Virus genome (UHGV): UHGV-0121717
Reading direction: 5' to 3' (one strand)
Origin: a virus
Length of the DNA stretch: 20,903 nt
The notes beneath the pieces are model-generated. The model was not told where the DNA came from. It saw only the letters and a program-made list of their open reading frames with translations, and searched no databases. Positions 1 to 20,853 of the stretch are shown in pieces; position 1 is the stretch's first letter; every line of letters starts with the position of its first letter. Made by a program: the position numbers and the translations under genes.

Positions 1-10
1 CAACCCTTAA

Positions 11-175
11 GTTAGCGCTTATGGGGTTATGCCCCATGTCACTGAAAAGATGCTGGGGCATGAACTTAGTGGTGTGATGGCGGTGTATAACAAACACGAC
101 TGGCTGGTGGAGCAGAAAGACGCTTATGAGCTTTATGCCGATAAAGTGTTCTGGCACGTCAAACAGCTCGGTTAA
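11..175 (+). CDS. Tyrosine integrase, extreme C-terminal fragment (P4/CP4-57-like); gene body lies upstream of the window or is a remnant
   Basis: Frame-2 translation VSAYGVMPHVTEKMLGHELSGVMAVYNKHDWLVEQKDAYELYADKVFWHVKQLG* fits the C-terminal pattern I recall for P4-type integrases (LGH...VYNxxDYxxER...WADxL). An in-frame TAA at 8-10 suggests a frameshift or decay. Below the ORF-track size cutoff. Confidence 0.4.
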   Translation, partial: VSAYGVMPHVTEKMLGHELSGVMAVYNKHDWLVEQKDAYELYADKVFWHVKQLG

Positions 176-344
176 CGCCTCCTTCGGCTATCCATTTCAT
201 AACGGCTTTTCTGCTATACCGCGTCGGGTACGTTAAAACTGGCTGAGGGAATCCGTGGTCTTTGCGTAAGCGCCATACTGCTGTTTTTTTCTTTTTGAGC
301 AGGTCGAAAACTTCCTGTTCTTCCATAAAATCAGTAGTAGTCAT
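159..344 (-). CDS. AlpA-family phage regulator / excisionase-like small HTH protein
   Basis: 61 aa starting MTTTDFMEEQ; GAGGA Shine-Dalgarno 5 nt upstream of the ATG at 344. The motif WRLRKDHGFPQPV...RKAVMKWI resembles AlpA/Xis-type winged-helix proteins. The track ORF 159-401 extends to an upstream Met with no ribosome-binding site. Confidence 0.5.
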   Translation of the reverse strand: MTTTDFMEEQEVFDLLKKKKTAVWRLRKDHGFPQPVLTYPTRYSRKAVMKWIAEGGVNRAV

Positions 345-397
345 GATTTTCCTCGTTGTTAAAGTCTTTATTGTCCGCAACTCTATTCTATGGTGAT

Positions 398-637
398 TCA
401 CGCCGCCCGCATCGAGCGCAGCTTCTTAATGTGCTCGCTCTGTTCCAGTTCAGCCCGGATCTGTCGGGCCTCATCATGGTCGAGCGGTTCAAAGTCGTTG
501 TTAAACCTGTACATGCTGGCCGTATTTATCCGTCCCTGGCGCCAGTAGCACACCGTTCTGGCGTCACAGCTGTGAATAATGACTGGCCATCCGTGACCGT
601 CTGGGAAAATCTGGCCTCGCTGAATGAGTTGAAACAC
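398..637 (-). CDS. Hypothetical phage protein
   Basis: 79-codon ORF with a GTG start 3 nt after the TraR stop and AGAGG 6 nt upstream; same strand and tight spacing as the neighbouring operon genes. No recognisable motif. Confidence 0.4.
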   Translation of the reverse strand: MFQLIQRGQIFPDGHGWPVIIHSCDARTVCYWRQGRINTASMYRFNNDFEPLDHDEARQIRAELEQSEHIKKLRSMRAA

Positions 638-640
638 GGC

Positions 641-859
641 TCACCTCTGATGCTTCCCGCGCTTTTCCGCTTCGTCCTGGCAGTCAGCGCAGCGCTGACA
701 ACCTGCCACCAGTTCCCGGCGCCGTGCCGGAATTGCCTCTCCACAATCAATGCAGTGCGTAGCCGATACCGCGTTATGGTTGATGCGATGGGCCTGTATC
801 GCCTTATCGCGGAGAAGCTCTTCTAATTCGCTGGCCTGATCGATAATTTCTGCGCTCAT
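641..859 (-). CDS. TraR/DksA-family C4 zinc-finger protein
   Basis: 72 aa with CIDC-x17-CQRC (two CxxC pairs) in the C-terminal half after an acidic helix; typical prophage TraR. Start overlaps the upstream gene stop (ATGA). Confidence 0.8.
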   Translation of the reverse strand: MSAEIIDQASELEELLRDKAIQAHRINHNAVSATHCIDCGEAIPARRRELVAGCQRCADCQDEAEKRGKHQR

Positions 860-1383
860 GCTGCCTCCATGGTTCCGATCCGCTTTAACTCACTCAGCGA
901 AACGGACGTGATGATGCGTCTTGGCGTGATGAATGGCCGCCAGATGAACAAAATTGAGTCCTTTGGGTTGCTCTGCCGTTTACCTGTAGCCGACGCCGGC
1001 ACAAACTGAATGCGTCCGCCGGTTATCAGGCGAATCTCATCAGCGCTCTGCATCGCGGAGAGAAACCATCCGGTAGAGATATCTGCGGGAAGCAGAATGA
1101 CTACCGTCTGGGACTGCGCTTTACATTGCTCGGTGGCTTTCTCCACCCACGGCCCGATATCGGAATAGGGTGGGTTGCACCAGATCGCGCCGTACGACGA
1201 CCATTCACGACTCAGCGAGTTATCCAGCTCAGTGAGATAGTGAGCGCATAGCGCATTACGTTCAGAGGCAGCAGCATCCAGCCAGAAGCCAAACTCAAGA
1301 TCGAGCGCGTTAAATATTTCAATCGGCGTTTGCCAGTAGTCTCTTTCATTTGTCGGTGTGTTCGATCCGCCGTAGTCAGTCAC
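856..1383 (-). CDS. Phage DNA N6-adenine methyltransferase (phage Dam family)
   Basis: 175 aa containing the WCNPPYS catalytic motif IV and the DYWQTP...LDAAA N-terminal pattern typical of phage Dam methyltransferases. GTG start overlapping the upstream stop. Confidence 0.8.
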   Translation of the reverse strand: MTDYGGSNTPTNERDYWQTPIEIFNALDLEFGFWLDAAASERNALCAHYLTELDNSLSREWSSYGAIWCNPPYSDIGPWVEKATEQCKAQSQTVVILLPADISTGWFLSAMQSADEIRLITGGRIQFVPASATGKRQSNPKDSILFIWRPFITPRRIITSVSLSELKRIGTMEAA

Positions 1384-1814
1384 AATGCCGTCTCCATTTC
1401 GTCGATATAAAGGCCAGCAGCAATCAGCCGGCGGCGCCGGGCTGCTTTCTCAATACATTCCCGGCGATTACCCTCTGCCGCCAGAGCCATAGAACGCCGA
1501 GTGAACAGGCGTGTTTTACCCTGAGGGGTAATAACCTTTGGCTTTGTGATCAGGTCAAAGGTGCGGTCACAGATGCCGTCCTCGTTGAGCCAGGTTTCCG
1601 ATGTAACCAGCTGTGCAATGCGCCCTTCGCCTCTGGTCAGGCCGTTCGCGACACGGTTAAATTCGATGAGCGTTACGCCGAATTTCTCTGCGATTTCGCT
1701 GCCAGTTACCGGGCGACCGCGCGTCTGAATCATCCAGATAACGCGCTCGCGGAGTCCGGAGAATTTCCCGGCCTTACCTGGTCTGCGGTAAAATGGTGTG
1801 CGTTTCATTTCCAC
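1380..1814 (-). CDS. Hypothetical phage protein with predicted winged-helix DNA-binding segment
   Basis: 144 aa; the segment VTGSEIAEKFGVTLIEFNRVANGL looks like an HTH. Translationally coupled to the Dam gene. Function not assignable from sequence. Confidence 0.45.
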   Translation of the reverse strand: MEMKRTPFYRRPGKAGKFSGLRERVIWMIQTRGRPVTGSEIAEKFGVTLIEFNRVANGLTRGEGRIAQLVTSETWLNEDGICDRTFDLITKPKVITPQGKTRLFTRRSMALAAEGNRRECIEKAARRRRLIAAGLYIDEMETAL

Positions 1815-1834
1815 TGCTCCCAGAGTATTTCGGC

Positions 1835-2317
1835 CTATTTGATCATCAGAGACGGCTTGCCGAGCTTTATTTGCGCCCCGGGCACGTCAATACCAGCTTC
1901 GATTTGATGCTTGATAGCCAGTTTGTCTGGTTTGATATTCGTCTCGTACTCGATGAATTCAGGCGGTAATGCGCTGGCGTCAGTAATCTCGACAGATTTA
2001 GAAGGTGCGCGAACCGTTACCTGATGAACTCCGGCTTTAAGTGATTTTTTACCGATGGTTTCCAATGATTTAGCGACATACTCCTTCATGCTTGCCACGC
2101 GGCTTTCGGCGGCTTTTGCACGCTCAGTAAGGCGCTTACTTTCTTCTTTCAGAGCCTCGGCATAAGCAGATTCGTTTTTGCAGACCGCAAGAATCTGCTC
2201 AACCTTTGCTTCCAGCTCCCACTCAATTCCATCAAGAGTGTCGGCTATCATTTCAGGCTCCATGCCGGAGTCAGTCAGCTTGGCGAAATCGTTGGCGATC
2301 TGATAAAGGGCTGTCAT
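1835..2317 (-). CDS. Siphovirus Gp157-like protein
   Basis: 160 aa starting [14 protein letters not shown], with a coiled-coil middle. Resembles the Gp157 family, which as I recall has been linked to phage resistance. GAAGAGG Shine-Dalgarno upstream. Confidence 0.5.
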
Positions 2318-2401
2318 TGGGTAACCTCTTCAAATTTGGCTTTACGCGTTGGCGAATAATCATTTCTGCCGGAAGAATGCCGGGATTGTATGCAAGTCCT
2401 C

Positions 2402-2692
2402 TCATGATTTACTCTCCACGAACTGGTCAACAGCCGTGCTAAGTGATACACCTAAAGTCTCGATATGCTGCTGAATATCCTGTAGTGTCTGCGCCTGAGA
2501 TAACAGGATTTCACGGTTGCATAACTCTTTAACCAGATGCTCAAACTTGCTGTAATAACCGATACGGCTTAGTGTTTCTTTCCCTGCATTCTCACCTTCT
2601 TTGATAATTCCTCTTTCGCTAAGAATCAGATCGTGTTTGGTTCCGGTAATAACGTATTTTCCGAGGTCGATGTTTAGCTTCATTGTTTTCAT
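2402..2692 (-). CDS. Hypothetical small phage protein
   Basis: Start chosen at [11 protein letters not shown] (GAGG 7-8 nt upstream) rather than the track's 2842, which would overlap the upstream gene by about 140 nt. No recognisable motif. Confidence 0.4.
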
Positions 2693-2702
2693 GGTAAATT
2701 CC

Positions 2703-2996
2703 TCAGTCATTACTGATAGCGCCATAGCGTGAGCGGTAATTACGCAGGCGCGGGTCAATTTCAGGGAAGTGGGTATATGTGGCTTTGCGGAATGGTCGGA
2801 TTGATGTCTGGTAAATTCGCTCGCGTTCTTCTTTCTCTGCAAGCCATATACAGTGGCGAAATTCCTTTTCCTCTTTCGTTTCCTGCGGTAGCGACATTAT
2901 CCGGTCGTAGTTTTTTCTGAATTTATCCAGCACCTCCGATATGGAATTGCCGGAACAACGGCGCGGGTCATCCGCACCATACAGAGGCGCTGGCAT
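2703..2996 (-). CDS. Hypothetical phage protein
   Basis: 97-aa ORF with an AAGGA ribosome-binding site; basic and charged. Lies directly downstream of the ssb-like fragment. Confidence 0.4.
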   Translation of the reverse strand: MPAPLYGADDPRRCSGNSISEVLDKFRKNYDRIMSLPQETKEEKEFRHCIWLAEKEERERIYQTSIRPFRKATYTHFPEIDPRLRNYRSRYGAISND

Positions 2997-3019
2997 GATT
3001 AAATCCTTATTTTTCTGAA

Positions 3020-3376
3020 TCAGAATGGGATGGAATCGTCGTATACAGGAGTGTTCTGCTGGTTACTACTTTGCTGCTGCGGGCCATTTCCTGAAGCTGC
3101 AAATCCAATCTTTGCATTCAGTAATTCAAGAGTGATTGATTGACCATTTTGCCCCTGATAAACATCAACCCTGATGTTTTCTCCGGTAATTTCCACAATG
3201 CCACCTTCAACAAGAACGCTACGGTAGTAATCCGCTTGCGCTCCCGGCTTGACAAATACAACGGCGCTGTAGTTTGTCCATTCTTTCTTTTTTGTCTGGC
3301 GATCGTAATACTGAACGCCAGCACGGATGTTGAATCCGATATCTCCGCTCTGGTTATCTGCATCATCGTCTGCCTG
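3020..3376 (-). pseudogene. ssb-like single-stranded DNA-binding protein, 3' portion only (5'-truncated)
   Basis: Stop-to-stop frame gives ...GNGPQQQSSNQQNTPVYDDSIPF*, the Gln/Gly-rich linker and acidic IPF tail characteristic of bacterial-type SSB. No ATG in the frame; it is cut near 3340-3376 where Rz homology begins on the other strand. Confidence 0.45.
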
Positions 3377-3757
3377 TCATGGGCGGTTAATCATTACCGT
3401 GATAACGCCATTACCTATAAAGAACAGCGCGATAAGGCCGCATTCATTATCGCTGACATGCAGAAACGTCAACGCAATGTAGCAGAACTCGACGCCAGAT
3501 ATACAAAGGAGCTTGCTGATGCTAACGCGACTATCGAAAGTCTCCGTGCTGATGTTTCTGCTGGGCGTAAGCGCCTGCAAGTCGCCGCCACCTGTGCAAA
3601 GTCAACGACCGGAGCCAGCGGCATGGGCGATGGAGAAAGCCCAGGACTTACAGCAGATGCTGAACTCAATTATTACCGTCTCCGAAGTGGAATCGACAAG
3701 ATAACCGCGCAGGTCAACTACCTGCAGGAGTACATCAGGACGCAGTGCTTAAAATAA
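3140..3757 (+). CDS. Rz: Rz i-spanin homologue; true Rz homology covers 3341-3757, with the native start and first ~7 codons missing
   Basis: [32 protein letters not shown] matches lambda Rz residues 8-39 almost exactly, and the rest aligns to lambda Rz. The only ATG-initiated ORF (3140) begins 67 codons upstream in sequence antisense to the ssb-like fragment. Confidence 0.75.
3513..3704 (+). CDS. Rz1: Rz1 o-spanin lipoprotein, embedded in the +1 frame of Rz
   Basis: 63-aa ORF wholly inside Rz in another frame; signal peptide ending in the lipobox VSAC followed by a proline-rich stretch ([14 protein letters not shown]), as in lambda Rz1. Confidence 0.7.
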
Positions 3758-3794
3758 TTTTAATTTCACTGAAATTTAATACGTGACTTTCAGG

Positions 3795-3823
3795 AAAATG
3801 CCTCGCAGATGCGGGGCATTTTT
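3795..3823 (+). terminator. Intrinsic terminator downstream of Rz
   Basis: AAAATGCCTCGC-AGAT-GCGGGGCATTTTT: about 12-bp GC-rich stem (one G-U pair), 4-nt loop, T-tract. Confidence 0.5.
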
Positions 3824-4173
3824 GTACAGGTATTTCACCGCGCACCGCAGCGCACTCAACCACGTCGAACCAAACCCTTTGGAATGAGCCTTTGAGTAGT
3901 CAGTTAGTGCTGGTGAGCCTTGACGGGCTGATCTCCTATGCAGCAAAGGTTCATCTCAAAGTAAGACGAACGCTATGACAAACCAAGATTCTATAGACCT
4001 ATCTGATCTTCGTGGAATGGTCATTTTTCCAGACAAAAGGTAATCACCATAGTCGTATGGCTATGAATCTTGTTGCTGCAGATAAGCATTTTGTGATTGA
4101 AGTGGTCAAATCTCTCAAATGCAGTAAAATGCAGTGCGCTATAATTCAATAACGGAGGGAGTAAGGAGAAGTC

Positions 4174-4794
4174 ATGAAAGATCAAGATGTTAGGTTCGCG
4201 GTGCATCATACGCTTTTGAAAGAATCGCATTTAGATCCAGACTGCCTTGTGGTCGATGAATTTTCCATATCCCTTGGCGCCAGTAGAGCAGACATTGCTG
4301 TAATAAATGGTGTTATACACGGGTACGAACTCAAAAGTGAATATGACTCTTTGGAGCGTTTGCCTCTTCAAATCAAGCATTATTCTTCTGTAATGGACAA
4401 GGTTACTCTTGTCGTAGCTGAGAAACATCTTGAGGGAGCATTAAAGTTAATCCCAGGTTGGTGGGGCGTTAAAACGGTTTCTGTTGGGCCAAAAGGCGCC
4501 ATTCTTATAAAGCACATGCGTGGAGAAAAGCTTAATCGAAACCATGACACATTGATGCTCGCTCAATTGCTTTGGAAAGATGAATGTATCGACGTACTTG
4601 AACGATGGGGCTATTCCAAAGGAATCAAAAGCAAGCCCCGATTTGAGTTATGGAATATTATTGCGGAAAATATTCCAATAGCGAATCTCAGGCTTGAAGT
4701 CAGAACAGCCTTAAAGAAACGCGTAGGCTGGAAAGTTAAGGCTTGGCAGGCTGAGTCTGCGCCAACCAATAAAGCTGTCTCACGACTAACGTAA
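4174..4794 (+). CDS. PD-(D/E)xK nuclease-like protein, uncharacterised; first gene of the moron cassette
   Basis: 206 aa; AGGAG Shine-Dalgarno 5 nt upstream. Motif E29 ... D40 (RADIAVI) ... E52-L-K54 (GYELKS) has the spacing of a PD-(D/E)xK active site. AT-rich relative to the flanking phage genes. Confidence 0.65.
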   Translation: MKDQDVRFAVHHTLLKESHLDPDCLVVDEFSISLGASRADIAVINGVIHGYELKSEYDSLERLPLQIKHYSSVMDKVTLVVAEKHLEGALKLIPGWWGVKTVSVGPKGAILIKHMRGEKLNRNHDTLMLAQLLWKDECIDVLERWGYSKGIKSKPRFELWNIIAENIPIANLRLEVRTALKKRVGWKVKAWQAESAPTNKAVSRLT

Positions 4795-5803
4795 TATGGT
4801 GCGTATGTGCAACTTTACGCCATTCTTTAGAGCCGCCAGATTTGTTAGCGCCTAATGATCTTTGGTAAATGTAATCATCCCCCCAACTAAATTTGGAACC
4901 AAAGACTTGATACTCTGGCGAACTAACAAGGGTAGTACATAAGTTTTTAGTTTGGCCCCATCCATTTCCTTTAACTGCGGTACCTTTTACAAAGATCCAT
5001 GAGGTATCGTTCGAATATCTCACTGAGACATACTGAGACATGAAGCGTGGGTCTACGCTCGTAATGGTAGAGCTAGCGGTGGGATAATCACTAAAACTTG
5101 GCGTTCTTCCATTGCTAAAATTCTGTACTACGTACATCCAAAGATCGTATTCATGGCGCGGAATATGATGAACTTGATGTTGCGGTATCCCTGCCTGTGA
5201 TGCTGGGTATGCGGTTGAAGATAAAATCAAGTTTCTCCACGGAGCTTGGCCTGATAATGTGTTGACCATGCTTAATGCTTGTTGTTTTAAACTATCAGTT
5301 GCGTTTTGAATATCTCCAAAATCAATGATTACATCAATTAAACTAGGATGAATATTTAAGTGGTTAACCAGACTTGTGAATTGGTGCCATGTCTGGGGGG
5401 TGATAGATATAGCGAGCCCATTGATTAAGTTGCGTTGAACAGCATGTATATAGTTTGTTGAATATGCGGGAGAAACAACAGGGATAATTTCCTTACCATT
5501 TACTCTAGCATCTTGGATACACATATCTAGAGGATGATGGCGGCTCGAACCATGTTTATCTAAATATTTAACATCCAGCAAAACAGGACGATTGGTTTTC
5601 CAGGATGCCGCAAGGTTAATACCGAAGTCAGATAAGTAAGAACTCAAACTCTTCTTGTAGCATTCGTTTTCATAATCCCAGTCTATGTCTGGAATGGTAA
5701 TGATCGGAGTAAAACCAGAGAGCGTAGTTTGATCTAAAAGCATCAGAGATTCATATTCAGCAGGCTTCCATTTCAGCTGTGGATAATATTGATGTTGACT
5801 CAT
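4736..5803 (-). CDS. Uncharacterised 355-aa protein, convergent partner of the PD-(D/E)xK-like gene
   Basis: AAGGAG Shine-Dalgarno 4 nt upstream of the ATG at 5803; 3' end overlaps the partner by 59 nt. Contains His clusters (HQVHHIPRH, HTHH) but no P-loop or other motif I can assign. AT-rich. Confidence 0.65.
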   Translation of the reverse strand: MSQHQYYPQLKWKPAEYESLMLLDQTTLSGFTPIITIPDIDWDYENECYKKSLSSYLSDFGINLAASWKTNRPVLLDVKYLDKHGSSRHHPLDMCIQDARVNGKEIIPVVSPAYSTNYIHAVQRNLINGLAISITPQTWHQFTSLVNHLNIHPSLIDVIIDFGDIQNATDSLKQQALSMVNTLSGQAPWRNLILSSTAYPASQAGIPQHQVHHIPRHEYDLWMYVVQNFSNGRTPSFSDYPTASSTITSVDPRFMSQYVSVRYSNDTSWIFVKGTAVKGNGWGQTKNLCTTLVSSPEYQVFGSKFSWGDDYIYQRSLGANKSGGSKEWRKVAHTHHITLVVRQLYWLAQTQPAKP

Positions 5804-6011
5804 TAAAACTCCTTAAAATCTTTACTTATCCTAAGTATAGTGTTATGGCGTAACGCCAATTGTTTTTATACACTTGAAAACATTAGGAAAAGTTGAGCTA
5901 TATCTAAATTTACAAAATTGGATGTTATAGAAATCGAGGTTTCAACTAGGCATGGAACTGCAAAATTTTTAATGCCTGCACGCGAAAGTCGTTGGCGGGT
6001 CCTTTCCGGTG

Positions 6012-6190
6012 ATCCAGACCGTTACGGGGCGGCGACCTCGCGGTTTTTCACTATTTATGAAAATTTTTCAGGGAAAATCATGTCGGTACTTATCGAATAT
6101 AACTTTTTGTTTTTTTTAATATTGCATCCGTAAAGGTCCGACATGAAAGTGTCCGAAAATGCCTTTTTCTGGCGTTTTCATGTCGGGCCT
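6012..6190 (+). other. cos DNA-packaging site (cosQ-side sequence, cosN, cosB with three R-like repeats)
   Basis: GGTGATCCAGACCGTTACG then GGGCGGCGACCTCGCGGTTTTTCACTATTTATGAAAATTTT (6027-6067) is near-identical to the lambda right-end/left-end junction as I recall it. Downstream copies of TCATGTCGG at 6078-6086 (+), 6138-6146 (inverted) and 6178-6186 (+), with an AT-rich spacer, mirror the lambda R3-I1-R2-R1 layout. Confidence 0.8.
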
Positions 6191-6214
6191 TGTATTTGAT
6201 AATGGGTTGTTTTC

Positions 6215-6763
6215 ATGAAGGTTAATAAAAAGAGGCTTGCCGAAATTTTCAACGTGGACCCGCGGACGATTGAACGCTGGCAGTCTCAGGGACTCCCTTG
6301 CGCCTCCAAAGGTAGTAAGGGCATTGAATCTGTATTTGATACTGCCATGGCAATTCAGTGGTATGCGCAGAGGGAAACTGATATCGAAAACGAAAAGCTC
6401 CGCAAAGAACTGGACGATTTGCGTGCTGCAGCGGAGTCAGATTTACAACCCGGCACCATTGACTATGAACGCTACCGGCTCACAAAAGCGCAGGCAGATG
6501 CGCAGGAACTGAAAAATGCCCGTGAAGACGGAGTAGTGCTGGAAACTGAACTGTTTACCTTCATTCTGCAACGTGTGGCACAGGAGATTTCGGGGATACT
6601 TGTGCGTGTGCCGTTGACATTACAGCGTAAATATCCGGACATTTCACCATCACACCTTGATGTGGTGAAAACTGAAATCGCGAAAGCCTCCAATGTTTCA
6701 GCTAAGGCCGGTGAAAACGTGGGCGGGTGGATCGATGATTTCAGACGCGCAGAAGGCAGCTAA
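6215..6763 (+). CDS. nu1: Terminase small subunit
   Basis: 182 aa; [12 protein letters not shown]...[10 protein letters not shown]...[27 protein letters not shown] aligns closely with lambda Nu1. Immediately downstream of cosB. Confidence 0.9.
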
Positions 6764-8663
6764 TGCAGCCGGTGCGATAGCAACAGGGCTTTTATCTCTC
6801 ATTATTCCTGTTCCACTGACGACAGTTCAGTGGGCCAATAAACATTATTACCTTCCTAAAGAGTCGTCTTATACCCCGGGGCGGTGGGAAACACTGCCGT
6901 TTCAGGTTGGCATCATGAACTGTATGGGCAACGATTTGATTCGCACTGTTAACCTGATTAAATCTGCCCGTGTTGGTTATACAAAGATGTTGCTGGGAGT
7001 GGAGGCTTATTTTATTGAGCATAAATCACGCAACAGCCTTCTTTTTCAGCCCACGGACTCAGCTGCTGAAGATTTTATGAAATCTCATGTTGAGCCAACG
7101 ATAAGGGAGGTTCCTGCGTTGCTGGAGCTGGCTCCATGGTTCGGAAGAAAACACCGCGATAATACGCTCACCCTGAAGCGTTTTTCCTCCGGTGTGGGTT
7201 TCTGGTGTCTGGGGGGAGCGGCAGCAAAAAACTACCGTGAAAAATCCGTGGATGTGGTCTGTTATGACGAGCTTTCCTCGTTCGAACCGGATGTTGAAAA
7301 AGAGGGTTCGCCAACCCTGCTGGGGGATAAACGTATTGAGGGCTCTGTATGGCCCAAATCCATTCGCGGCTCGACTCCTAAAATCAAAGGCTCCTGCCAG
7401 ATCGAAAAAGCCGCTAACGAGTCGGCACACTTCATGCGTTTTTATGTGCCCTGTCCGCACTGTGGGGAGGAGCAGTATCTGAAATTTGGCGATGAATCCA
7501 CGCCTTTTGGCCTAAAATGGGAGAAGGACAGCCCCGAAAGCGTTTTCTACCTCTGTGAACATCATGGCTGCGTGTTCCATCAGTCTGAGCTTGACCAGAG
7601 CAACGGGCGGTGGATCTGTGAAAACACGGGGATGTGGACCCGTGACGGTCTGACGTTTTTCAGCGCCGCGGATAATGAAATTCCGCCGCCGCGCTCCATC
7701 ACGTTCCATATCTGGACGGCGTACAGTCCGTTCACCACCTGGGTACAGATAGTCTATGACTGGCTGGATGCACTGAAAGATCCCAACGGCCTGAAAACCT
7801 TTGTGAACACCACGCTGGGCGAGACCTGGGAAGAGGCCGTGGGCGAAAAACTCGATCACCAGGTACTGATGGATAAGGTCGTGCATTACACGGCGGCGGT
7901 GCCAGCCCGGGTGGTTTATCTGACGGCGGGCATTGACTCGCAGCGAAACCGTTTTGAGATGTATGTCTGGGGATGGGCACCGGGAGAGGAAGCTTTTCTG
8001 GTGGATAAAATCATCATTATGGGCCGTCCCGATGAGGAAGAGACGCTGTTACGTGTGGATGCGGCGATCAACAAAAAATACTGCCATGCAGACGGAACCG
8101 AAATGACCATTTCCCGTGTCTGCTGGGACACCGGGGGGATCGATGGTGAAATTGTCTATCAGAGGTCAAAAAAACACGGTGTTTTCCGGGTGCTGCCGGT
8201 AAAAGGCGCATCTGTCTATGGCAAGCCGGTGATCACCATGCCGAAAACCCGCAATCAGCGGGGCGTGTATCTGTGTGAAGTGGGGACGGACACCGCAAAA
8301 GAAATTCTCTATGCCCGTATGAAAGCCGATCCCACTCCTGCGGATGAAGCCACGTCGTATGCCATCCGTTTTCCTGATGATCCGGAGATTTTTTCGCAGA
8401 CAGAGGCGCAGCAACTGGTCGCGGAAGAGCTTGTGGAGAAGTGGGAAAAAGGAAAGATGCGTCTGCTGTGGGATAACAAAAAGCGGCGTAACGAAGCGCT
8501 GGACTGCCTGGTGTATGCCTACGCGGCATTACGTGTGTCCGTGCAACGCTGGCAGCTTGATCTGGCTGTACTGGCAAAATCCCGGGAAGAAGAGACGACC
8601 CGGCCAACCCTTAAAGAACTGGCAGCGAAGCTGTCCGGAGGAGTGAATGGTTACAGTCGCTGA
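6735..8663 (+). CDS. A: Terminase large subunit
   Basis: Start taken at MISDAQKA (6735), overlapping the nu1 3' end as in lambda. Long near-colinear identity to lambda gpA ([49 protein letters not shown]). Confidence 0.9.
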
Positions 8664-8853
8664 ACTGCAGGCGCTGCGTCAGGCGCGCCTTGATTTATTA
8701 ACCGGTAAACGGGTGGTGTCTGTCCAGAAAGATGGTCGCAGAATTGAATATACGGCGGCTTCTCTGGATGAGCTTAACCGGGCGATCAATGATGCGGAGT
8801 CGGTACTGGGGACAACCCGGCGTCGCCGTCGTCCGCTGGGAGTGAGGTTATGA
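8647..8853 (+). CDS. W: Head-tail joining / head completion protein W
   Basis: 68 aa; LTGKRVVSVQKDGRRIEYTAASLDEL matches lambda gpW ([26 protein letters not shown]). Overlaps the A stop. Confidence 0.85.
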   Translation: MVTVAELQALRQARLDLLTGKRVVSVQKDGRRIEYTAASLDELNRAINDAESVLGTTRRRRRPLGVRL

Positions 8854-10442
8854 AACGAACGCCTGTCCTGATTGATGTGAACGGCGTTCCGCTTCGTGAG
8901 AGTCTCAGCTACAACGGGGGCGGTGCAGGATTTGGCGGGCAAATGGCGGAGTGGTTGCCACCGGCGCAGAGTGCCGATGCGGCCCTGCTACCCGCGTTGC
9001 GTCTGGGGAATGCCCGGGCAGATGATCTGGTGCGCAATAACGGAATAGCGGCTAATGCGGTGGCTCTGCATAAGGATCACATTGTCGGGCATATGTTTCT
9101 GATCAGCTACCGTCCGAACTGGCGCTGGCTGGGGATGCGGGAGACCGCAGCAAAAAGCTTTGTCGATGAGGTGGAGGCGGCCTGGTCGGAATACGCCGAA
9201 GGGATGTTTGGCGAGATCGACGTGGAAGGAAAACGCACGTTCACGGAATTTATCCGTGAAGGTGTGGGCGTTCATGCGTTTAACGGCGAAATCTTTGTGC
9301 AGCCGGTCTGGGATACGGAAACCACGCAGTTATTCCGTACGCGTTTTAAAGCCGTGAGTCCGAAACGGGTGGACACGCCTGGACACGGTATGGGGAACCG
9401 TTTTCTGCGGGCCGGTGTGGAGGTCGATCGATATGGCCGTGCCGTCGCGTACCATATTTGTGAGGACGATTTTCCGTTCTCTGGTAGTGGACGATGGGAA
9501 CGGATCCCGCGTGAACTTCCCACCGGGCGTCCGGCCATGCTGCATATTTTCGAGCCGGTGGAGGACGGGCAGACCCGTGGGGCTAATCAGTTTTACAGCG
9601 TCATGGAACGGCTGAAGATGCTCGATTCCCTGCAGGCAACACAGCTTCAGTCGGCCATAGTGAAGGCGATGTATGCAGCGACGATTGAAAGTGAACTTGA
9701 TACCGAAAAGGCCTTTGAATATATCGCCGGTGCGCCGCAGGGGCAGAAGGATAATCCGCTTATTAATATTCTGGATAAGTTCTCCACCTGGTATGACACG
9801 AATAGCGTGACGCTGGGCGGTGTCAAAATTCCGCACCTTTTCCCCGGTGATGATCTGAAACTTCAGACCGCGCAGGATTCAGACAATGGATTTTCGGCGC
9901 TTGAACAGGCGCTGCTGCGGTATATCGCCGCCGGTCTTGGCGTTTCCTACGAACAGTTGTCCCGTGATTACTCGAAGGTCAGTTATTCAAGTGCCCGCGC
10001 ATCCGCCAATGAGTCGTGGCGCTATTTTATGGGGCGGCGAAAATTTATTGCGTCCCGGCTGGCCACGCAGATGTTTTCCTGCTGGCTGGAAGAGGCACTT
10101 CTTCGGGGGATTATTCGTCCGCCACGGGCACGTTTTGATTTTTATCAGGCGCGATCAGCCTGGTCACGGGCTGAGTGGATTGGAGCCGGAAGAATGGCCA
10201 TTGACGGGCTCAAGGAGGTTCAGGAATCAGTGATGCGCATTGAGGCCGGACTGAGCACGTATGAGAAAGAGCTGGCGCTGATGGGCGAGGATTATCAGGA
10301 CATTTTCCGCCAGCAGGTCAGGGAATCTGCAGAGCGGGAAAAAGCCGGACTCTCACGTCCGGTGTGGATAGCGCAGGCGTATCAGCAGCAGATAGCGGAG
10401 AGTCGCAGGCCGGAAGAGGAGACAACACCACGTGAGACGTAA
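8850..10442 (+). CDS. B: Portal protein
   Basis: 530 aa with extensive identity to lambda gpB (ARADDLVRNNG, FEPVEDGQTRGANQFYSVMERLKMLD, LLRYIAAGLGVSYEQLSR). ATGA overlap with W. Confidence 0.9.
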   Translation: MKRTPVLIDVNGVPLRESLSYNGGGAGFGGQMAEWLPPAQSADAALLPALRLGNARADDLVRNNGIAANAVALHKDHIVGHMFLISYRPNWRWLGMRETAAKSFVDEVEAAWSEYAEGMFGEIDVEGKRTFTEFIREGVGVHAFNGEIFVQPVWDTETTQLFRTRFKAVSPKRVDTPGHGMGNRFLRAGVEVDRYGRAVAYHICEDDFPFSGSGRWERIPRELPTGRPAMLHIFEPVEDGQTRGANQFYSVMERLKMLDSLQATQLQSAIVKAMYAATIESELDTEKAFEYIAGAPQGQKDNPLINILDKFSTWYDTNSVTLGGVKIPHLFPGDDLKLQTAQDSDNGFSALEQALLRYIAAGLGVSYEQLSRDYSKVSYSSARASANESWRYFMGRRKFIASRLATQMFSCWLEEALLRGIIRPPRARFDFYQARSAWSRAEWIGAGRMAIDGLKEVQESVMRIEAGLSTYEKELALMGEDYQDIFRQQVRESAEREKAGLSRPVWIAQAYQQQIAESRRPEEETTPRET

Positions 10443-11937
10443 TCTTTCACACATTATTGCCGCAGCATTCAATGAACCGCTGCTTCTGGAGCCCGCCTAT
10501 GCGCGGGTTTTCTTTTGCGCGCTCGGGCGCGAGATGGGGGCAGCAAGTCTTTCGGTACCACAACAGCAGGTACAGCTTGATGCTCCCGGAATGCTGGCTG
10601 AAACGGACGAGTACATGGCCGGAGGTAAACGACCGGCCCGTGTTTACCGGGTGGTGAACGGTATTGCGGTACTGCCGGTGAGCGGCACGCTGGTGCACCG
10701 GCTGGGGGGGATGCGGCCATTTTCCGGAATGACTGGCTATGACGGCATTGTCGCCTGTCTTCAGCAGGCAATGGCAGATAGCCAGGTGCGGGGCATACTG
10801 CTGGACATTGACAGTCCGGGCGGGCAGGCCGCCGGCGCGTTTGACTGCGCTGACATGATTTACCGCCTCCGTCAGCAGAAGCCGGTCTGGGCACTGTGCA
10901 ATGACACGGCCTGTTCTGCAGCCATGCTGCTGGCGTCGGCCTGCTCCCGACGGCTGGTTACCCAGACATCCCGTATCGGCTCCATTGGCGTGATGATGAG
11001 CCATGTCAGCTATGCCGGTCATCTGGCGCAGGCCGGTGTGGATATCACGCTGATTTATGCCGGGGCGCACAAGGTGGATGGCAATCAGTTTGAAGCGTTG
11101 CCGGCAGAGGTTCGCCAGGATATGCAGCAGCGGATTGATGCGGCGCACCGGATGTTTGCCGAAAAAGTGGCGATGTATACCGGGTTGTCTGTGGATGCGG
11201 TCACGGGAACAGAGGCCGCCGTTTTTGAAGGTCAGTCCGGCATTGAGGCCGGGCTGGCGGATGAATTAATCAATGCGTCGGATGCCATCAGTGTGATGGC
11301 CACGGCGCTGAACAGTAATGTCAGAGGAGGCACTATGCCGCAATTAACTGCAACGGAAGCCGCCGTGCAGGAGAACCAGCGAGTGATGGGGATCCTGACA
11401 TGCCAGGAAGCGAAAGGACGTGAACAGCTTGCCACGATGCTGGCAGGGCAACAGGGCATGAGCGTTGAACAGGCCCGGGCGATTCTGGCCGCGGCGGCAC
11501 CGCAGCAGCCGGTGGCATCCGCGCAGAGTGAAGCCGATCGCATTATGGCGTGTGAAGAAGCGAACGGTCGTGAACAACTGGCGGCAACGCTGGCGGCGAT
11601 GCCGGAGATGACGGTGGAAAAAGCCCGCCCGATCCTGGCGGCTGCACCACTGGCGGATGCCGGGCCCTCACTTCGTGATCAGATCATGGCCCTGGATGAG
11701 GCAAAAGGGGCAGAAGCGCAGGCTGAAAAACTGGCGGCCTGCCCGGGAATGACCGTGGAGAGCGCCCGGGCTGTGCTGGCTGCGGGATCAGGTAAGGCAG
11801 AACCGGTCTCTGCATCCACAACCGCCCTGTTTGAACATTTCATGGCGAACCATTCACCGGCTGCGGTCCAGGGGGGCGTGTCACAGGCGTCAGAAGACGG
11901 TGATGCGGACGTGAAAATGCTCATGGCCATGCCATGA
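10432..11937 (+). CDS. C: Prohead protease / scaffold (S49 ClpP-like domain plus Nu3-like C-terminal scaffold region)
   Basis: GTG start; AFNEPLLLEPAYARVFFCAL and the GIAVLPVSGTL...MTGYDGI...KPVWAL core match lambda gpC. The C-terminal region carries three tandem copies of a module present once in lambda C. Confidence 0.85.
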   Translation: MRRNLSHIIAAAFNEPLLLEPAYARVFFCALGREMGAASLSVPQQQVQLDAPGMLAETDEYMAGGKRPARVYRVVNGIAVLPVSGTLVHRLGGMRPFSGMTGYDGIVACLQQAMADSQVRGILLDIDSPGGQAAGAFDCADMIYRLRQQKPVWALCNDTACSAAMLLASACSRRLVTQTSRIGSIGVMMSHVSYAGHLAQAGVDITLIYAGAHKVDGNQFEALPAEVRQDMQQRIDAAHRMFAEKVAMYTGLSVDAVTGTEAAVFEGQSGIEAGLADELINASDAISVMATALNSNVRGGTMPQLTATEAAVQENQRVMGILTCQEAKGREQLATMLAGQQGMSVEQARAILAAAAPQQPVASAQSEADRIMACEEANGREQLAATLAAMPEMTVEKARPILAAAPLADAGPSLRDQIMALDEAKGAEAQAEKLAACPGMTVESARAVLAAGSGKAEPVSASTTALFEHFMANHSPAAVQGGVSQASEDGDADVKMLMAMP

Positions 11938-11973
11938 AGTCAGTGCTGAACATCAATACGAGGTTTTAACAAT

Positions 11974-12321
11974 ATGGTGACGAAAACCATCACTGAACAG
12001 CGTGCGGAAGTACGTATTTTTGCCGGTAATGATCCGGCTCACACCGCCACAGGCAGCAGCGGGATTTCCTCGGCAACACCGGCACTGACACCCCTGATGC
12101 TGGATGGGGCCACCGGGAAACTGGTGGTCTGGGACGGACAGAAAGCCGGTAGTGCGGTTGGCATACTGGTACTGCCGCTTGAAGGCACAGAGGCGGTGCT
12201 GACCTATTACAAGTCGGGGACCTTTGCGACGGAGGCAATCCGCTGGCCTGAAAGTGTGGATGAACACAAAAAGGCCAACGCCTTTACCGGCAGTGCCCTG
12301 AGTCACGCGGCGCTGCCGTAA
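11974..12321 (+). CDS. D: Head decoration protein D
   Basis: 115 aa; DPAHTATG...TPLMLD...KLVVWDG...AVGILV...YKSGTF aligns with lambda gpD. Confidence 0.85.
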   Translation: MVTKTITEQRAEVRIFAGNDPAHTATGSSGISSATPALTPLMLDGATGKLVVWDGQKAGSAVGILVLPLEGTEAVLTYYKSGTFATEAIRWPESVDEHKKANAFTGSALSHAALP

Positions 12322-12378
12322 CACGTTATCAGGCCACCGCGTTGGCCTGACTGATTTCTTAATGAAAGGAACTGATTT

Positions 12379-12552
12379 ATGGGATTGTTTACGACCCGCC
12401 AGTTACTCGGTTATACCGAACAAAAAGTTAAATTCCGTGCGCTGTTTCTGGAGCTGTTTTTCCGCCGTACGGTGAATTTCCACACCGAAGAGGTGATGCT
12501 GGACAAAATTACCGGAAAAACGCCGGTACCAGATACGTATTGCCGGTTATGA
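12379..12552 (+). pseudogene. E: Major capsid protein E, N-terminal 57-codon fragment (truncated)
   Basis: MGLFTTRQLLGYTEQKVKFRALFLELFFRRTVNFHTEEVMLDKI matches lambda gpE residues 1-45; homology then stops and the frame ends at TGA 12550-12552. AAAGGA ribosome-binding site retained. Confidence 0.75.
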
Positions 12553-13030
12553 CACGGCACCGGAGGCGGTGTACGCCCGTCTTCACGAACAGCTGGGTGA
12601 GGGAACGGTCATCCATATTGTGCCGCGACTGGCCGGGGCCGGAAAGGGTGGACTGCAGATTGTGCTGGGGGCGGCAGCCATCGTGGGCTCTTTCTTCACT
12701 GCCGGGGCATCAATGGCGTTATGGGGTTCAGCCCTGGCAGCCGGTGGTTTTTCTGCCACCACGATGCTGTTTTCACTTGGAGCCAGCATGATTCTGGGCG
12801 GTGTGGCCCAGATGCTGGCCCCGAAGGCAAAAACACCGGATTACCGCGCAACGGATAACGGCAGACAGAACACGTACTTTTCCTCGCTGGATAACATGAT
12901 TGCCCAGGGGAACCCGATGCCGGTGCCTTACGGGGAAATGCTGGTTGGCTCCCGCCGTATATCCCAGGACATCAGCACCCGTGATGAAGGCGGGGGCGGA
13001 AAGGTCGTGGTTATCGGGCGACAGGGATAA
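12497..13030 (+). pseudogene. I: Tail assembly protein I, C-terminal fragment fused out of frame to the E fragment
   Basis: A different frame from E reads ...RYQIRIAGYDTAPEAVYARLHEQLGEGTVIHIVPRLAGAGKGG...GGKVVVIGRQG*, aligning with the C-terminal two-thirds of lambda gpI. An in-frame stop lies at 12494-12496; the only candidate start is GTG 12569. Confidence 0.75.
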
Positions 13031-13205
13031 AACATAAAAAAATCCCGCAGTGATCGCGGAGCTGCGGGGACAGACAAATGAAGATCAATGTGAAGGAGTT
13101 GTTTTTGTTACTCGGGCAAAAAAACACTAACGCAGCGAAATTATACGCGCCACAGTCAGTGTGTGAAAATGTGAAGATATTCAGAAATTTTATTCCGTCA
13201 TGACG

Positions 13206-13235
13206 CAGGCACCCGGTGAGGTGCCTGTTGTTTTT
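13206..13235 (+). terminator. Terminator-like hairpin in an extra segment between the I fragment and J
   Basis: CAGGCACC-CGGTGA-GGTGCCTG followed by TTGTTTTT: 8-bp perfect stem, 6-nt loop, T-tract. Confidence 0.4.
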
Positions 13236-13270
13236 GTGAGTGAACAATTATCACGGTAAGAGGTGATGTA

Positions 13271-16660: not shown

Positions 16661-16679
16661 ATTTTATAACCCATATAAG

Positions 16680-16703
16680 GGCACCAGAAATGGTGCCTTT
16701 TTT
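16680..16703 (+). terminator. Intrinsic terminator after J
   Basis: GGCACCA-GAAA-TGGTGCC followed by TTTTTT. Confidence 0.65.
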
Positions 16704-16727
16704 ATTGCAGAAAAGCGAGAGGTAATT

Positions 16728-17327: not shown

Positions 17328-17353
17328 TTAGCCAGGTAACACAGTGTTATGAC

Positions 17354-17380
17354 AGCCCGCCGGTTCTGGTGGGCTTTTTT
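17354..17380 (+). terminator. Intrinsic terminator after lom
   Basis: AGCCCGCC-GGTTCT-GGTGGGCT followed by TTTTTT (one G-U pair in the stem). Confidence 0.55.
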
Positions 17381-17391
17381 GTGGGGGGAAT

Positions 17392-19755: not shown

Positions 19756-20853
19756 TCAAGAGGTCTTATTTCTGCTCCTTTGGAGCTCTTCAAAACGATT
19801 ATGTAAAGATTTCGGATACAGTTCGGTATATACCTGCCATAGCACGTTTAATGAACGATGCCCTGTAACCTGGGCGACTTCCTCAATACTAAAACCAGCC
19901 TCAAATAAGCGACTTGCCCCTTCTCTACGCAAATCATGGTATCGCAGATCTTTAATACCTAATTTGCTTCTTACCCTCTGGAATCCCGCAGTAACAGAAG
20001 TGCTGTTATATGGAAAAATGAATTCTGATTTTTTGGGTTGTCGTTGGACGATATCCCAGGCTTCCCCAAGCAAGGCTACTTTCATATGGTTGCCTTCCTT
20101 TTTACGTGGATCTTTCCTGTCTCTTACGAGTATGGATTTTTGTTCCTGATCGAGATCCTCCCATCGTAATCGGCATACTTCACCGATTCGCATACATGAC
20201 CACACAGAAAATTTGAGGATATCAACGAACGGAATTTTTGAGCATTTATGTGTAGATCGTTGTTGAAGACCTTCAATGAGCATGTCCAGTTCATCAGATG
20301 CCGGTCTACGATTACGACGATTTGATTTACCAATTAAACCAAGTTTAAGTAGATATGGACGAGCGGCTTTTGCTGGGTTTGATGTGTAATTAATTCCATA
20401 TACAGGTTTGGCAGCATCCAGAACACTGCCAAGATAACTAACATCGTGGCTAACTGTAGCTGGACCTGCACCAGCGTTGTTTCTTAGCCTGCAATGTTCA
20501 ATTACGTCATTTTCTGTCAGTTCAGATAGTTTGATCGCGGAGATGTCACTATCCATAAGCAGTTCCAGCACATATCTTTTAGTACGGCCTGCTTTACCTC
20601 CGGCATTTGGGTCATTTAAATATTTGCGTAGTAAGTCACGGACTGTAAGTCCGTCAACTGCATTTGATGATGGAATGCCATATAGATCTAATTCCATCAC
20701 TTTCTGTGTGCCCCATGTTTTGGCATGAGCATGTTTAGGGAATGTTTTGCTTTCCCTGTAAGTGATAACACCTTTTTCTTTGATAATCACATTACAGCGA
20801 TAGCGTGGTGTGCCATCGGATTTTAGTCGTTTCTCTATGTTATAGTACGCCAT
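19756..20853 (-). CDS. int: Tyrosine-type site-specific integrase
   Basis: 365 aa; C-terminal catalytic region ...RIGEVCRLRWEDLD...YHDLRREGASRLFEAGFSIEEVAQVTGHRSLNVLWQVYTEL with the R...HxxR...Y signature. GAGG ribosome-binding site. AT-rich relative to the J/stf module. Confidence 0.85.
   Translation of the reverse strand: MAYYNIEKRLKSDGTPRYRCNVIIKEKGVITYRESKTFPKHAHAKTWGTQKVMELDLYGIPSSNAVDGLTVRDLLRKYLNDPNAGGKAGRTKRYVLELLMDSDISAIKLSELTENDVIEHCRLRNNAGAGPATVSHDVSYLGSVLDAAKPVYGINYTSNPAKAARPYLLKLGLIGKSNRRNRRPASDELDMLIEGLQQRSTHKCSKIPFVDILKFSVWSCMRIGEVCRLRWEDLDQEQKSILVRDRKDPRKKEGNHMKVALLGEAWDIVQRQPKKSEFIFPYNSTSVTAGFQRVRSKLGIKDLRYHDLRREGASRLFEAGFSIEEVAQVTGHRSLNVLWQVYTELYPKSLHNRFEELQRSRNKTS

What the first reader, a model, noticed from the sequence alone, without database searches (positions are those of the whole stretch)
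3300..3400. Deletion junction: 5'-truncated ssb-like gene abuts 5'-truncated Rz head to head
On the minus strand, an ORF ending in the SSB-type tail ...DDSIPF has no start and is cut by a stop at 3377-3379. On the plus strand, Rz homology begins at lambda residue 8 ([10 protein letters not shown]...) with no start codon at the conserved position. No holin or endolysin ORF lies upstream of Rz, and none of N, cI, cro, O, P or Q is present. A single deletion joining the interior of ssb to the beginning of Rz would explain this. The element can therefore neither lyse cells nor regulate itself, yet it keeps the spanins and the early-left accessory operon.
Basis: partly seen in the sequence, partly recalled or inferred. 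Interest (0 to 1): 0.5.

Follow-up and report, generated by a model that had tools for sequence, protein, structure and literature searches.

The report
Deletion scar in a dead prophage
This is the scar of a roughly 12-kb deletion that removed the control, replication and cell-lysis genes from a lambda-like prophage of E. coli, which is an ordinary way for prophages to decay, although the cut in the Rz gene falls on exactly the same base as in at least five other independent prophage deletions.

Summary
On the minus strand, an SSB-like gene (PHROG 44, tail DDSIPF) matches intact copies only up to base 3342 and has lost its first ~21 codons. On the plus strand, Rz homology starts at 3340-3343 (lambda residue 8), with no usable start codon. 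The two share only TAT (3340-3342). Intact relatives of the left arm (99.97% identical) carry erf, kil, cIII, N, cI, cro, cII, O, a DnaB-type helicase and nin genes beyond ssb. A collinear intact E. coli prophage has 11.97 kb between the ssb start and the Rz start. None of these genes, and no holin or endolysin, is in the window. The identical scar occurs in independent metagenome contigs, so it is not an assembly artefact. It is a routine cryptic-prophage deletion; K-12 Rac has an analogous ydaW'::rzpR' junction.

Two additions:
- The window is a hybrid. Left of a 62-bp block (3503-3564) it is the deleted prophage next to dsdC; right of it, a second defective prophage at dusA. This join is seen in one 6x contig only, so it is either a real Rz-Rz inversion or a misassembly.
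- The Rz breakpoint (GCGAT|TATCTCC) recurs to the base in six independent deletions. This is unexplained.

The parts
1..175 (+). 3' end of a P4-type tyrosine integrase belonging to the prophage next to dsdC. The source contig ends 29 nt before window base 1.
   Evidence: The translation ...LGHELSGVMAVYNKHDW... corresponds to the end of the 389-aa integrase (PF13356+PF00589) that is convergent with xis in L008-L016.
159..3016 (-). Retained early-left accessory genes: xis-like HTH (159-344/401), DUF4222 (398-637), TraR/DksA zinc finger (641-859), Dam methyltransferase (856-1383), phrog_1680 protein (1380-1814), Gp157 (1835-2317), DUF2737 (2314-2451), DUF5405 (2402-2692) and anti-RecBCD Abc2 (2703-2996). 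All ORFs are intact, but their pL promoter and N are deleted.
   Evidence: Pfam and PHROG scans. The arm is 99.94-99.97% identical to intact prophages L008-L015 up to base 3342.
3020..3342 (-). 5'-truncated SSB-like gene: codons ~22-127 plus the stop of a 127-codon gene.
   Evidence: phrog_44 'single strand DNA binding protein', E=2.2e-23 for the remnant and 2.9e-27 for the full-length protein. The tail is DDSIPF. There is no Pfam SSB hit and no PDB sequence hit.
3340..3342 (.). Deletion junction: TAT is shared by both parents (ssb parent ...CCGATAT|TTTCC; Rz parent ...GCGATTAT|CTCC).
   Evidence: Alignment with both intact parents. The junction is identical in L007 and L013.
3343..3757 (+). 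5'-truncated Rz (i-spanin), residue 8 to the stop. Gene callers report it as a 205-aa ORF from TTG 3140, whose first 67 codons are antisense ssb.
   Evidence: PF03245, E=1.2e-34. Start-codon scan. The called protein P0001 is found in one contig only.
3519..3704 (+). Intact Rz1 (o-spanin) ORF embedded in Rz', with lipobox LLGVSAC.
   Evidence: PF06085, E=2.2e-20. The sequence was read.
3503..3564 (.). 62-bp block identical in both parental Rz types. The window equals the dsdC-side prophage (L007) to its left and the dusA prophage (L028, L031) to its right. It is the crossover point or the misassembly point.
   Evidence: SNP maps: the last L028-specific difference is at 3502 and the first L007-specific difference is at 3565. 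The window has no differences from L028 over 3503-4187. Contig L031 starts exactly at 3503.
4174..5803 (.). Two-gene moron between Rz and cos: a sce7726/'cll'-like gene (4174-4794, +) and a Beta-protein gene (4736-5803, -). It is a likely anti-phage defence cargo of the dusA prophage.
   Evidence: PF14350. PADLOC 'cll' 1.1e-30 and PD-Lambda-2_C 4e-32/'beta'. The pair is present in intact relatives L004, L005 and L026.
12519..12527 (.). Second, independent deletion scar (~8.65 kb). It joins major capsid gene E at codon ~50 to tail assembly gene I at codon ~24, with GGT microhomology.
   Evidence: BLAST against intact L004 and parental sequences. The same scar is in L018, L028 and L031.
19756..20853 (-). 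dusA-specific tyrosine integrase at the right end. In the source contig, dusA-pspG-qorA-dnaB-alr-tyrB follow.
   Evidence: PF00589. The context matches E. coli 442/2, L018-L025 and the source contig itself, L165.

Best explanation
Bases 3340-3342 are the scar of one internal deletion of about 12 kb in a lambdoid prophage that sits next to dsdC in Escherichia. The deletion ran from codon ~21 of a small SSB-like gene in the leftward early operon, across erf, kil, cIII, N, the cI/cro/cII immunity region, replication genes O and a DnaB-type helicase, the nin region, Q, holin and endolysin, to the third base of Rz codon 7. The ends were joined by illegitimate recombination at a 3-nt microhomology (TAT).

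The result is a head-to-head pair of promoterless, start-less gene stumps. The leftward accessory genes have lost pL and N. Rz'/Rz1 have lost pR' and Q. The remnant therefore cannot repress, replicate, antiterminate or lyse (inferred from gene content). Loss of exactly these lethal functions is what selection on lysogens favours.

Afterwards, the DNA right of a 62-bp identical stretch inside Rz (3503-3564) was exchanged for the late region of a second, separately crippled prophage at dusA. This happened either by a real Rz-Rz homologous recombination, which would invert about 1.8 Mb of chromosome, or as an artefact of metagenome assembly.
For: Both breakpoints were mapped against intact parents. 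The left arm is 99.97% identical to L008, which continues into erf...nin. An intact collinear prophage in E. coli EH08-18-36 has 11.97 kb between the equivalent points. No deleted gene is detectable in the window. The base-identical scar occurs in L007 from a different sample, and its fusion protein P0121 is found on 3 contigs. In L007 the scar is followed by the late genes that follow Rz in EH08-18-36, so both breakpoints lie in one prophage. No promoter-like site lies at the junction. The hybrid structure is shown by the SNP maps. The dusA flank of the source contig is confirmed. The two prophages are in inverted orientation on the K-12 map, so an inversion is geometrically possible (gene orders).
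Against: No single intact genome carrying exactly this ssb allele and this Rz allele was retrieved, so 'one event' rather than two or more successive deletions is an inference, and the 12-kb size is an estimate (at least 9.0 kb from L008). All contigs with the scar are metagenome assemblies. None of 5,426 complete E. coli genomes, the GTDB representative genomes, IMG/VR or the JGI metagenomes holds it. Silence of the remnant genes is inferred, not measured. The window-type hybrid is seen in one 6x contig only, and its predicted reciprocal Rz product is absent from the 15-billion-protein collection.
Confidence: 0.9

Rival explanations
1. The ssb-Rz adjacency is the native gene order of an unusual small phage or satellite, not a deletion.
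For: Gene callers report a continuous 205-aa 'Phage_lysis' ORF across the junction.
Against: Its first 67 codons are antisense ssb with a TTG start and no ribosome-binding site. Both stumps lack the 5' ends present in many intact relatives. Intact prophages with the same arm carry about 12 kb in between.
Confidence: 0.01
2. The junction at 3340-3342 is itself an assembly chimera.
For: The window comes from a 6x metagenome contig.
Against: The parents share only 3 nt here, far below any assembler k-mer. The identical junction was assembled independently in another sample with different downstream DNA, and its protein is on 3 contigs.
Confidence: 0.02
3. The gap arose through two or more successive deletions, or a deletion plus recombination between two prophages, rather than one event.
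For: Related strains show other independent deletions in this same prophage family: L009, L010 and L014 join the cII-O region to tail or head genes. EC931 has an Abc2::holin' scar. Decay in steps is therefore common.
Against: No intermediate carrying either breakpoint alone was found. The junction shows no filler or remnant of intervening genes.
Confidence: 0.12
4. The link between the left arm with the scar and the phage-21-like late region plus dusA integrase (everything right of 3503-3564) is a misassembly through a 62-bp repeat. In the real genome, the scar is followed by KilA-N, terminase and myovirus-type late genes as in L007, and the dusA prophage keeps its own Q, holin, endolysin and full Rz as in L028.
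For: The hybrid protein P0001 exists in one contig of one sample at 6x coverage. The shared block is 62 bp, longer than the usual metaSPAdes top k of 55. Another assembly breaks its contig exactly at 3503. The predicted reciprocal recombinant Rz is not in the collection, whereas the dusA-type parent Rz is on at least 1000 contigs.
Against: The two prophages lie in inverted orientation, so RecA recombination in Rz would give exactly this structure as a viable inversion. Prophage-mediated inversions are well known in E. coli (my own knowledge).
Confidence: 0.55

Closest known systems
Rac cryptic prophage of E. coli K-12: ydaW'::rzpR' junction with intact rzoR
   Same: An internal deletion removed Q, holin and endolysin, and left a 5'-truncated Rz with an intact embedded Rz1. 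The Rz breakpoint is the same base (…|TATCTCCGCTCTGG).
   Different: The left partner is ydaW (DUF1627), a replication-region gene on the same strand, so Rac keeps its immunity and left operon with their promoters. The Rz allele is lambda-type and only ~72% identical to the window over the first 170 nt compared, although the first 60 nt are identical.
Other cryptic-prophage deletion scars in E. coli (strain EC931 Abc2::holin'; strain A2 DUF551'::Rz')
   Same: These are head-to-head fusions of a truncated early-left gene to the lysis cassette, with loss of the whole immunity, replication and Q region. A2 uses the same Rz base.
   Different: The left breakpoints differ. EC931 ends in the holin gene and keeps endolysin and a full Rz.
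Intact lambdoid prophages at dsdC (L008; E. coli EH08-18-36)
   Same: The gene order is the same. L008 has a near-identical left arm, and EH08-18-36 has the late region that follows Rz in L007.
   Different: They retain the ~12 kb missing here. EH08-18-36 has a different recombination module (a 157-aa canonical ssb and a Rad52-type recombinase).
dusA-integrated phage-21/lambda-like prophages (E. coli 442/2, STLEFF_47, L026, L028)
   Same: The window from 3503 to 20903 is 97-99.9% identical to these, including the sce7726/Beta moron, the dusA integrase and, in L028, L018 and L031, the same E'::I' deletion.
   Different: They have Q, holin, endolysin and a full 152-aa Rz upstream. The window instead has the foreign left arm.

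Membership tests
Phage SSB (phrog_44 / bacterial SSB type) | Sequence similarity to the SSB family | tested here: met
   phrog_44, E=2.9e-27 for the full-length relative and 2.2e-23 for the window remnant.
Phage SSB (phrog_44 / bacterial SSB type) | Acidic C-terminal tail ending in D-D-(D/S)-I-P-F | tested here: met
   ...TPVYDDSIPF*.
Phage SSB (phrog_44 / bacterial SSB type) | Match to Pfam SSB (PF00436) or to a solved SSB structure | tested here: not met
   There is no Pfam family at E<=0.01 and no PDB sequence hit better than E=0.48. The structure was not predicted. 'SSB-like' is therefore the right wording.
Phage SSB (phrog_44 / bacterial SSB type) | Complete ORF with a start codon | tested here: not met
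   About 21 codons are missing, and there is no in-frame start before GTG 3196.
Rz i-spanin (PF03245) | Pfam Phage_lysis domain | tested here: met
   E=1.2e-34.
Rz i-spanin (PF03245) | Own start codon and N-terminus ahead of the membrane anchor | tested here: not met
   Codons 1-7 are absent, and the first in-frame ATG (3458) lies after the anchor.
Rz1 o-spanin (PF06085) | ORF embedded in the +1 frame of Rz with a lipobox Cys | tested here: met
   3519-3704, E=2.2e-20, LLGVSAC.
Cryptic lambdoid prophage with internal deletion | Collinear intact relatives carry the missing segment between the two breakpoints | tested here: met
   L008 and L036.
Cryptic lambdoid prophage with internal deletion | The missing genes are absent from the locus | tested here: met
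   tblastn with 30 proteins returns only the ssb and Rz stumps.
Cryptic lambdoid prophage with internal deletion | Inability to be induced, lyse or form plaques | not testable with these tools
   This needs mitomycin C or UV induction of an isolate.

The most novel reading that the evidence does not exclude
The Rz end of this scar may not be a random breakpoint. Six independent deletions keep Rz from exactly the same base (intact ...GTAACCGCGAT|TATCTCCGCTCTGG). They have six different left partners (ssb', DUF551', NinX', a SAR-endolysin', ydaW' in K-12 Rac, and an HTH_36 replication gene) and fall in two Rz allele families that are only ~50-75% identical downstream. Microhomology is 0-4 nt and always starts at that T.

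This pattern fits a sequence-specific DNA break or a fixed stop of DNA synthesis in the ultra-conserved first 60 nt of lambdoid Rz, whose end is joined without resection. If so, it would be a built-in weak point that repeatedly seeds loss of the lysis and regulatory region, and hence prophage domestication.
Probability: 0.4. Interest if true: 0.6.

Novelty: new member of a known kind. Interest (0 to 1): 0.25.

Why it matters
On its own the scar matters little. It is one more example of how lysogens disarm prophages by deleting the killing and control genes while keeping accessory genes such as anti-RecBCD, Dam methylase, a TraR-like factor and a defence moron. It is a useful, well-mapped case, with both parents known, 3-nt microhomology, and later exchange through Rz. 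It is also a warning that the 20.9-kb 'element' may be two prophages stitched together by an assembler.

The recurrent base-precise Rz endpoint, shared with K-12 Rac, would matter more if it holds up. It would point to a specific mechanism, not just selection, behind where prophages break.

Tried and rejected
- **Junction searches that found nothing.** Exact-pattern searches for the junction returned no match in GTDB representative genomes, in 5,426 complete E. coli genomes, in IMG/VR or in JGI metagenomes. A search for any non-T base before TATCTCC in GTDB genomes also found nothing. The scar is therefore rare and known only from ENA metagenome assemblies.
- **Lookups that were not possible.** Fetching the complete genome behind L008 from the annotated collections failed because it is not held.
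- **No intact parent Rz.** The top 120 Rz homologues contain no intact Rz identical to the L007 allele.
- **Window left end.** I first thought the left end of the window might be the dusA attL. The alignment showed it is not; it is the 3' end of another integrase.
- **Tail-fibre gene.** I considered the 382-aa tail-fibre gene a third truncation. It is only a collagen-repeat copy-number variant of 367-427-aa relatives.
- **Hot-spot tests.**
  - The left flanks are not significantly similar to the deleted Rz flank (combined p=0.15).
  - The site is not a homology boundary, because intact alleles are conserved up to the ATG.
  - The local quasi-palindrome is not more stable than shuffled sequence (z=-1.6).
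  - No counterpart junction retaining ...GCGAT was found in IMG/VR; the three hits were SNP variants.
  - Many 'fused Rz' proteins from the representative search are frameshifted lambda reads, and I discarded them.
- **Literature.** Searches found no description of an Rz deletion hot spot.

Full report
**1. The observation**

On the minus strand, frame 3379-3020 gives [40 protein letters not shown]...NTPVYDDSIPF*. The TGA is at 3377-3379. There is no in-frame ATG, GTG or TTG until GTG at 3196.

On the plus strand, the frame that ends at 3757 reads ...[40 protein letters not shown].... This is Rz from lambda residue 8 onward. It matches Pfam PF03245 at E=1.2e-34, and the embedded Rz1 ORF (3519-3704, lipobox LLGVSAC) matches PF06085 at E=2.2e-20. 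No ATG lies in frame before 3458, which is past the membrane anchor. The three upstream TTG codons have no ribosome-binding context.

**2. Mapping the junction**

Megablast of 2400-4200 against 5,426 complete E. coli genomes gives left-hand matches that all stop at window 3342 and right-hand matches that start at 3337-3348. No genome spans both.

Alignment with an intact copy of each parent fixes the joint:
- ssb parent: ...GTTGAATCCGATAT|TTTCCC
- Rz parent: ...GTAACCGCGATTAT|CTCCGC
- window: ...GTTGAATCCGATATCTCCGC

The parents share TAT (3340-3342), flanked by an imperfect CGAT(T)AT.

The ssb-like gene is 127 codons long in intact prophages ([29 protein letters not shown]...), so 20-21 codons are lost. 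Rz has lost six codons plus two bases.

The gene is 'SSB-like' in a limited sense. It hits phrog_44 (single strand DNA binding protein, E=2.9e-27) and has the canonical tail. It has no Pfam SSB hit and no PDB sequence hit.

**3. Is it a deletion?**

Looking up the exact Gp157 protein of the left arm returned ten loci. Eight of them (L008-L012, L014-L016) carry the window's left arm at 99.94-99.97% identity up to base 3342 exactly, except L016, which runs off its locus at 2365. Where the locus reaches that far, the ssb-like gene is complete and followed by ERF, kil, cIII, an N-like gene, a cI-type S24 repressor, cro, cII, O, a DnaB-type helicase and the nin genes. The left end of this prophage is a P4-type integrase convergent with xis, next to dsdC-dsdX-dsdA.

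A complete E. coli genome, EH08-18-36, has a collinear intact prophage at dsdC with the late region found in L007. In it, the ssb start and the Rz start are 11.97 kb apart, with Q, two tRNAs, a lambda-family holin and a GH24 endolysin just upstream of Rz. L008 alone gives a lower bound of 9.0 kb.

tblastn of 30 proteins from these intact relatives against the whole window returns only the two stumps. The proteins were N, cI, cro, cII, O, DnaB, Q of two types, holins and endolysins of two types, ERF/Rad52, kil, cIII, nin, ssb and Rz.

The native-order alternative is therefore refuted and the deletion reading is supported.

**4. Is the junction real?**

The window is bases 30-20932 of an ENA metagenome contig (ERZ651857 NODE_44, 150.7 kb, 6x coverage). 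The base-identical junction is present in L007, from another sample and assembly. Its fusion ORF (P0121) is on three contigs. A 3-nt overlap could not mislead an assembler. The scar is real but rare: it is absent from complete E. coli genomes, GTDB representative genomes, IMG/VR and JGI metagenomes.

**5. What happened after the deletion**

L007 and the window are identical from the left arm through the scar to 3564. From 3565 they diverge. In L007, Rz' is followed by KilA-N, a small terminase, and Mu-F/Pa193/E217-type head and myovirus-type tail genes. These are the same late genes as in the intact dsdC prophage EH08-18-36. Both breakpoints of the deletion therefore lie in one prophage, which fits a single internal deletion.

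In the window, Rz' is instead followed by a sce7726/Beta-protein moron, Nu1, A, W, B, C, D, a truncated E, I', J, lom, stf, tfa, dinI and a dusA-type integrase. In the source contig this is followed by dusA-pspG-qorA-dnaB-alr-tyrB. This part is 99.6-99.9% identical to dusA prophages L028 and L031. Those share the window's second scar (section 7), and L028 still has holin, DUF1327, lysozyme and a full 152-aa Rz.

SNP maps place the switch in a 62-bp block, 3503-3564, that is identical in both parents. The last L028-specific difference is at 3502, the first L007-specific difference is at 3565, and there are no differences from L028 over 3503-4187.

On the K-12 map, the two prophages have their late operons in opposite orientation (gene orders). 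RecA recombination in Rz would therefore produce exactly this structure as a ~1.8-Mb inversion.

Four facts point the other way:
- The hybrid ORF (P0001) occurs in one 6x contig only.
- The predicted reciprocal Rz is not among 15 billion proteins, while the dusA-type parent Rz is on at least 1000 contigs.
- A 62-bp repeat exceeds a k of 55.
- Another assembly breaks its contig exactly at 3503.

I rate misassembly slightly more likely than inversion (0.55). Either way the scar is unaffected. The statement that 'this element' lacks lysis genes strictly applies to the dsdC-side prophage.

**6. Consequences (inferred)**

The leftward accessory genes are intact ORFs but have lost pL and N. These are xis, DUF4222, the TraR/DksA-like gene, Dam methylase, the phrog_1680 gene, Gp157, DUF2737, DUF5405 and Abc2. 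Rz'/Rz1 have lost pR' and Q.

The only sigma-70-like match in 2900-4250 lies upstream of the moron (4103-4130), not at the junction.

The 205-aa 'lysis protein' called by pipelines is an artefact whose first 67 codons are antisense ssb. An o-spanin without its i-spanin partner has no known function (established spanin biology, my knowledge).

This is the standard picture of prophage decay by loss of deleterious functions, summarised in PMC6379469, which cites Lawrence et al. 2001.

**7. Second scar**

At 12519-12527 the major capsid gene E (codon ~50) is joined to tail assembly gene I (codon ~24). About 8.65 kb is lost (FI, FII, Z, U, V, G, T, H, M, L, K) at a GGT microhomology. The same scar is in L018, L028 and L031, so it predates the hybrid.

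**8. An unexpected regularity**

K-12-type Rac has ydaW'::rzpR', and its Rz homology begins at the very same base. The DUF1627 profile match runs right up to the joint, so the left flank is genuine ydaW.

I then looked at other fused or truncated Rz genes from the protein searches and BLAST hits. Six independent junctions all keep Rz from TATCTCCGCTCTGG:

| Left partner | Source | Sequence at the joint |
|---|---|---|
| ssb' | window / L007 | GAATCCGA\|TATC |
| DUF551' | E. coli A2 | TTACCGGA\|TATC |
| NinX' | L038 | ATATTTGA\|TATC |
| SAR-endolysin' | L160 / L161 | CACGGGCA\|TATC |
| ydaW' | Rac | GCATCCG\|TATC |
| HTH_36 replication gene | L039 | GAACGGC\|TATC |

Further points:
- The intact left parents continue with TAT, GAG/GCT, TA, TA, T(A) and TATC. 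That is 0-4 nt of microhomology, always starting at that T.
- The truncated alleles belong to two Rz families that are ~72% identical over the first 170 nt and ~50% identical beyond, so they are not copies of one event.
- Other fusions end at codons 3, 3, 4, 5, 13, 14, 21, 22, 28, 61 and 74. The site is therefore a hot spot, not an obligatory site.
- It is not a homology boundary.
- The left flanks do not resemble the deleted Rz flank (p=0.15).
- The local quasi-palindrome is weak (z=-1.6).

The pattern fits a fixed DNA end, or a fixed 3' end of leftward synthesis, at GCGAT|TATC that is joined without resection. I could not identify the cause. The sample is small, and it was found through protein-level and BLAST-level searches that favour breakpoints near the 5' end of Rz. 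I found no description of this in the searchable literature.

**9. Verdict**

The kind of feature is well known; Rac is the textbook parallel. Overall interest is therefore low (0.25). The recurrent base-precise Rz endpoint is the one thing here that deserves a proper census.

Noticed in passing
window 3340-3343; also L037 ~2519, L168 ~3001, L038 ~4278, L039 ~1059, L160 ~3164: Six independent prophage deletions with different left partners and two divergent Rz allele families, K-12 Rac ydaW'::rzpR' among them, all keep Rz from exactly the same base (GCGAT|TATCTCC). Microhomology is 0-4 nt. This is a possible site-specific break or replication-arrest hot spot in the highly conserved first 60 nt of Rz.
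   Followed up: partly
window 3503-3564: This 62-bp block is identical in two Rz types. The window switches here from the dsdC-side prophage (as in L007) to a dusA prophage (as in L028 and L031). It is either an Rz-Rz inversion of ~1.8 Mb or a chimeric 6x metagenome contig. The reciprocal product was not found.
   Followed up: partly
window 12519-12527: A second deletion scar of ~8.65 kb joins capsid gene E (codon ~50) to tail gene I (codon ~24) at a GGT microhomology. It removes FI through K. The scar is shared with L018, L028 and L031, so it is older than the hybrid.
   Followed up: yes
window 4174-5803: A convergent two-gene moron lies between Rz and cos: a sce7726/P4-cII-like gene (PADLOC 'cll', E=1e-30) and a Beta protein (PF14350; PD-Lambda-2_C-like, E=4e-32). 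It is probably an anti-phage defence cargo, and it has the only promoter-like site in the region (4103-4130).
   Followed up: partly
window 1-175 and 159-401; L009 12466-13578: The left-end integrase and xis are convergent and overlap by 17 nt, which is the native arrangement in all relatives. The source contig and another assembly (L014) both end at the same point inside this integrase. In L009 an IS (DDE_Tnp_1) sits there, which suggests an IS insertion in the source strain as well.
   Followed up: no
L009, L010, L014 (about locus 3500-4340); L002 6558-6735: The same prophage family carries other independent internal deletions in other strains (the cII/O region joined to head or tail genes). 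E. coli EC931 has an Abc2::holin' scar plus IS5 and IS1 insertions. This family decays repeatedly and in different ways.
   Followed up: no
window 17815-18270: The tail-fibre gene (17392-18540) contains collagen-like triplet repeats whose copy number varies between strains (367, 382, 397, 412 and 427 aa versions).
   Followed up: partly
window 641-859 and 856-1383: The promoterless left arm retains a TraR/DksA-type zinc-finger gene and a Dam-family N6-adenine methyltransferase. These are the kinds of accessory genes that can act on the host if they are still transcribed.
   Followed up: no
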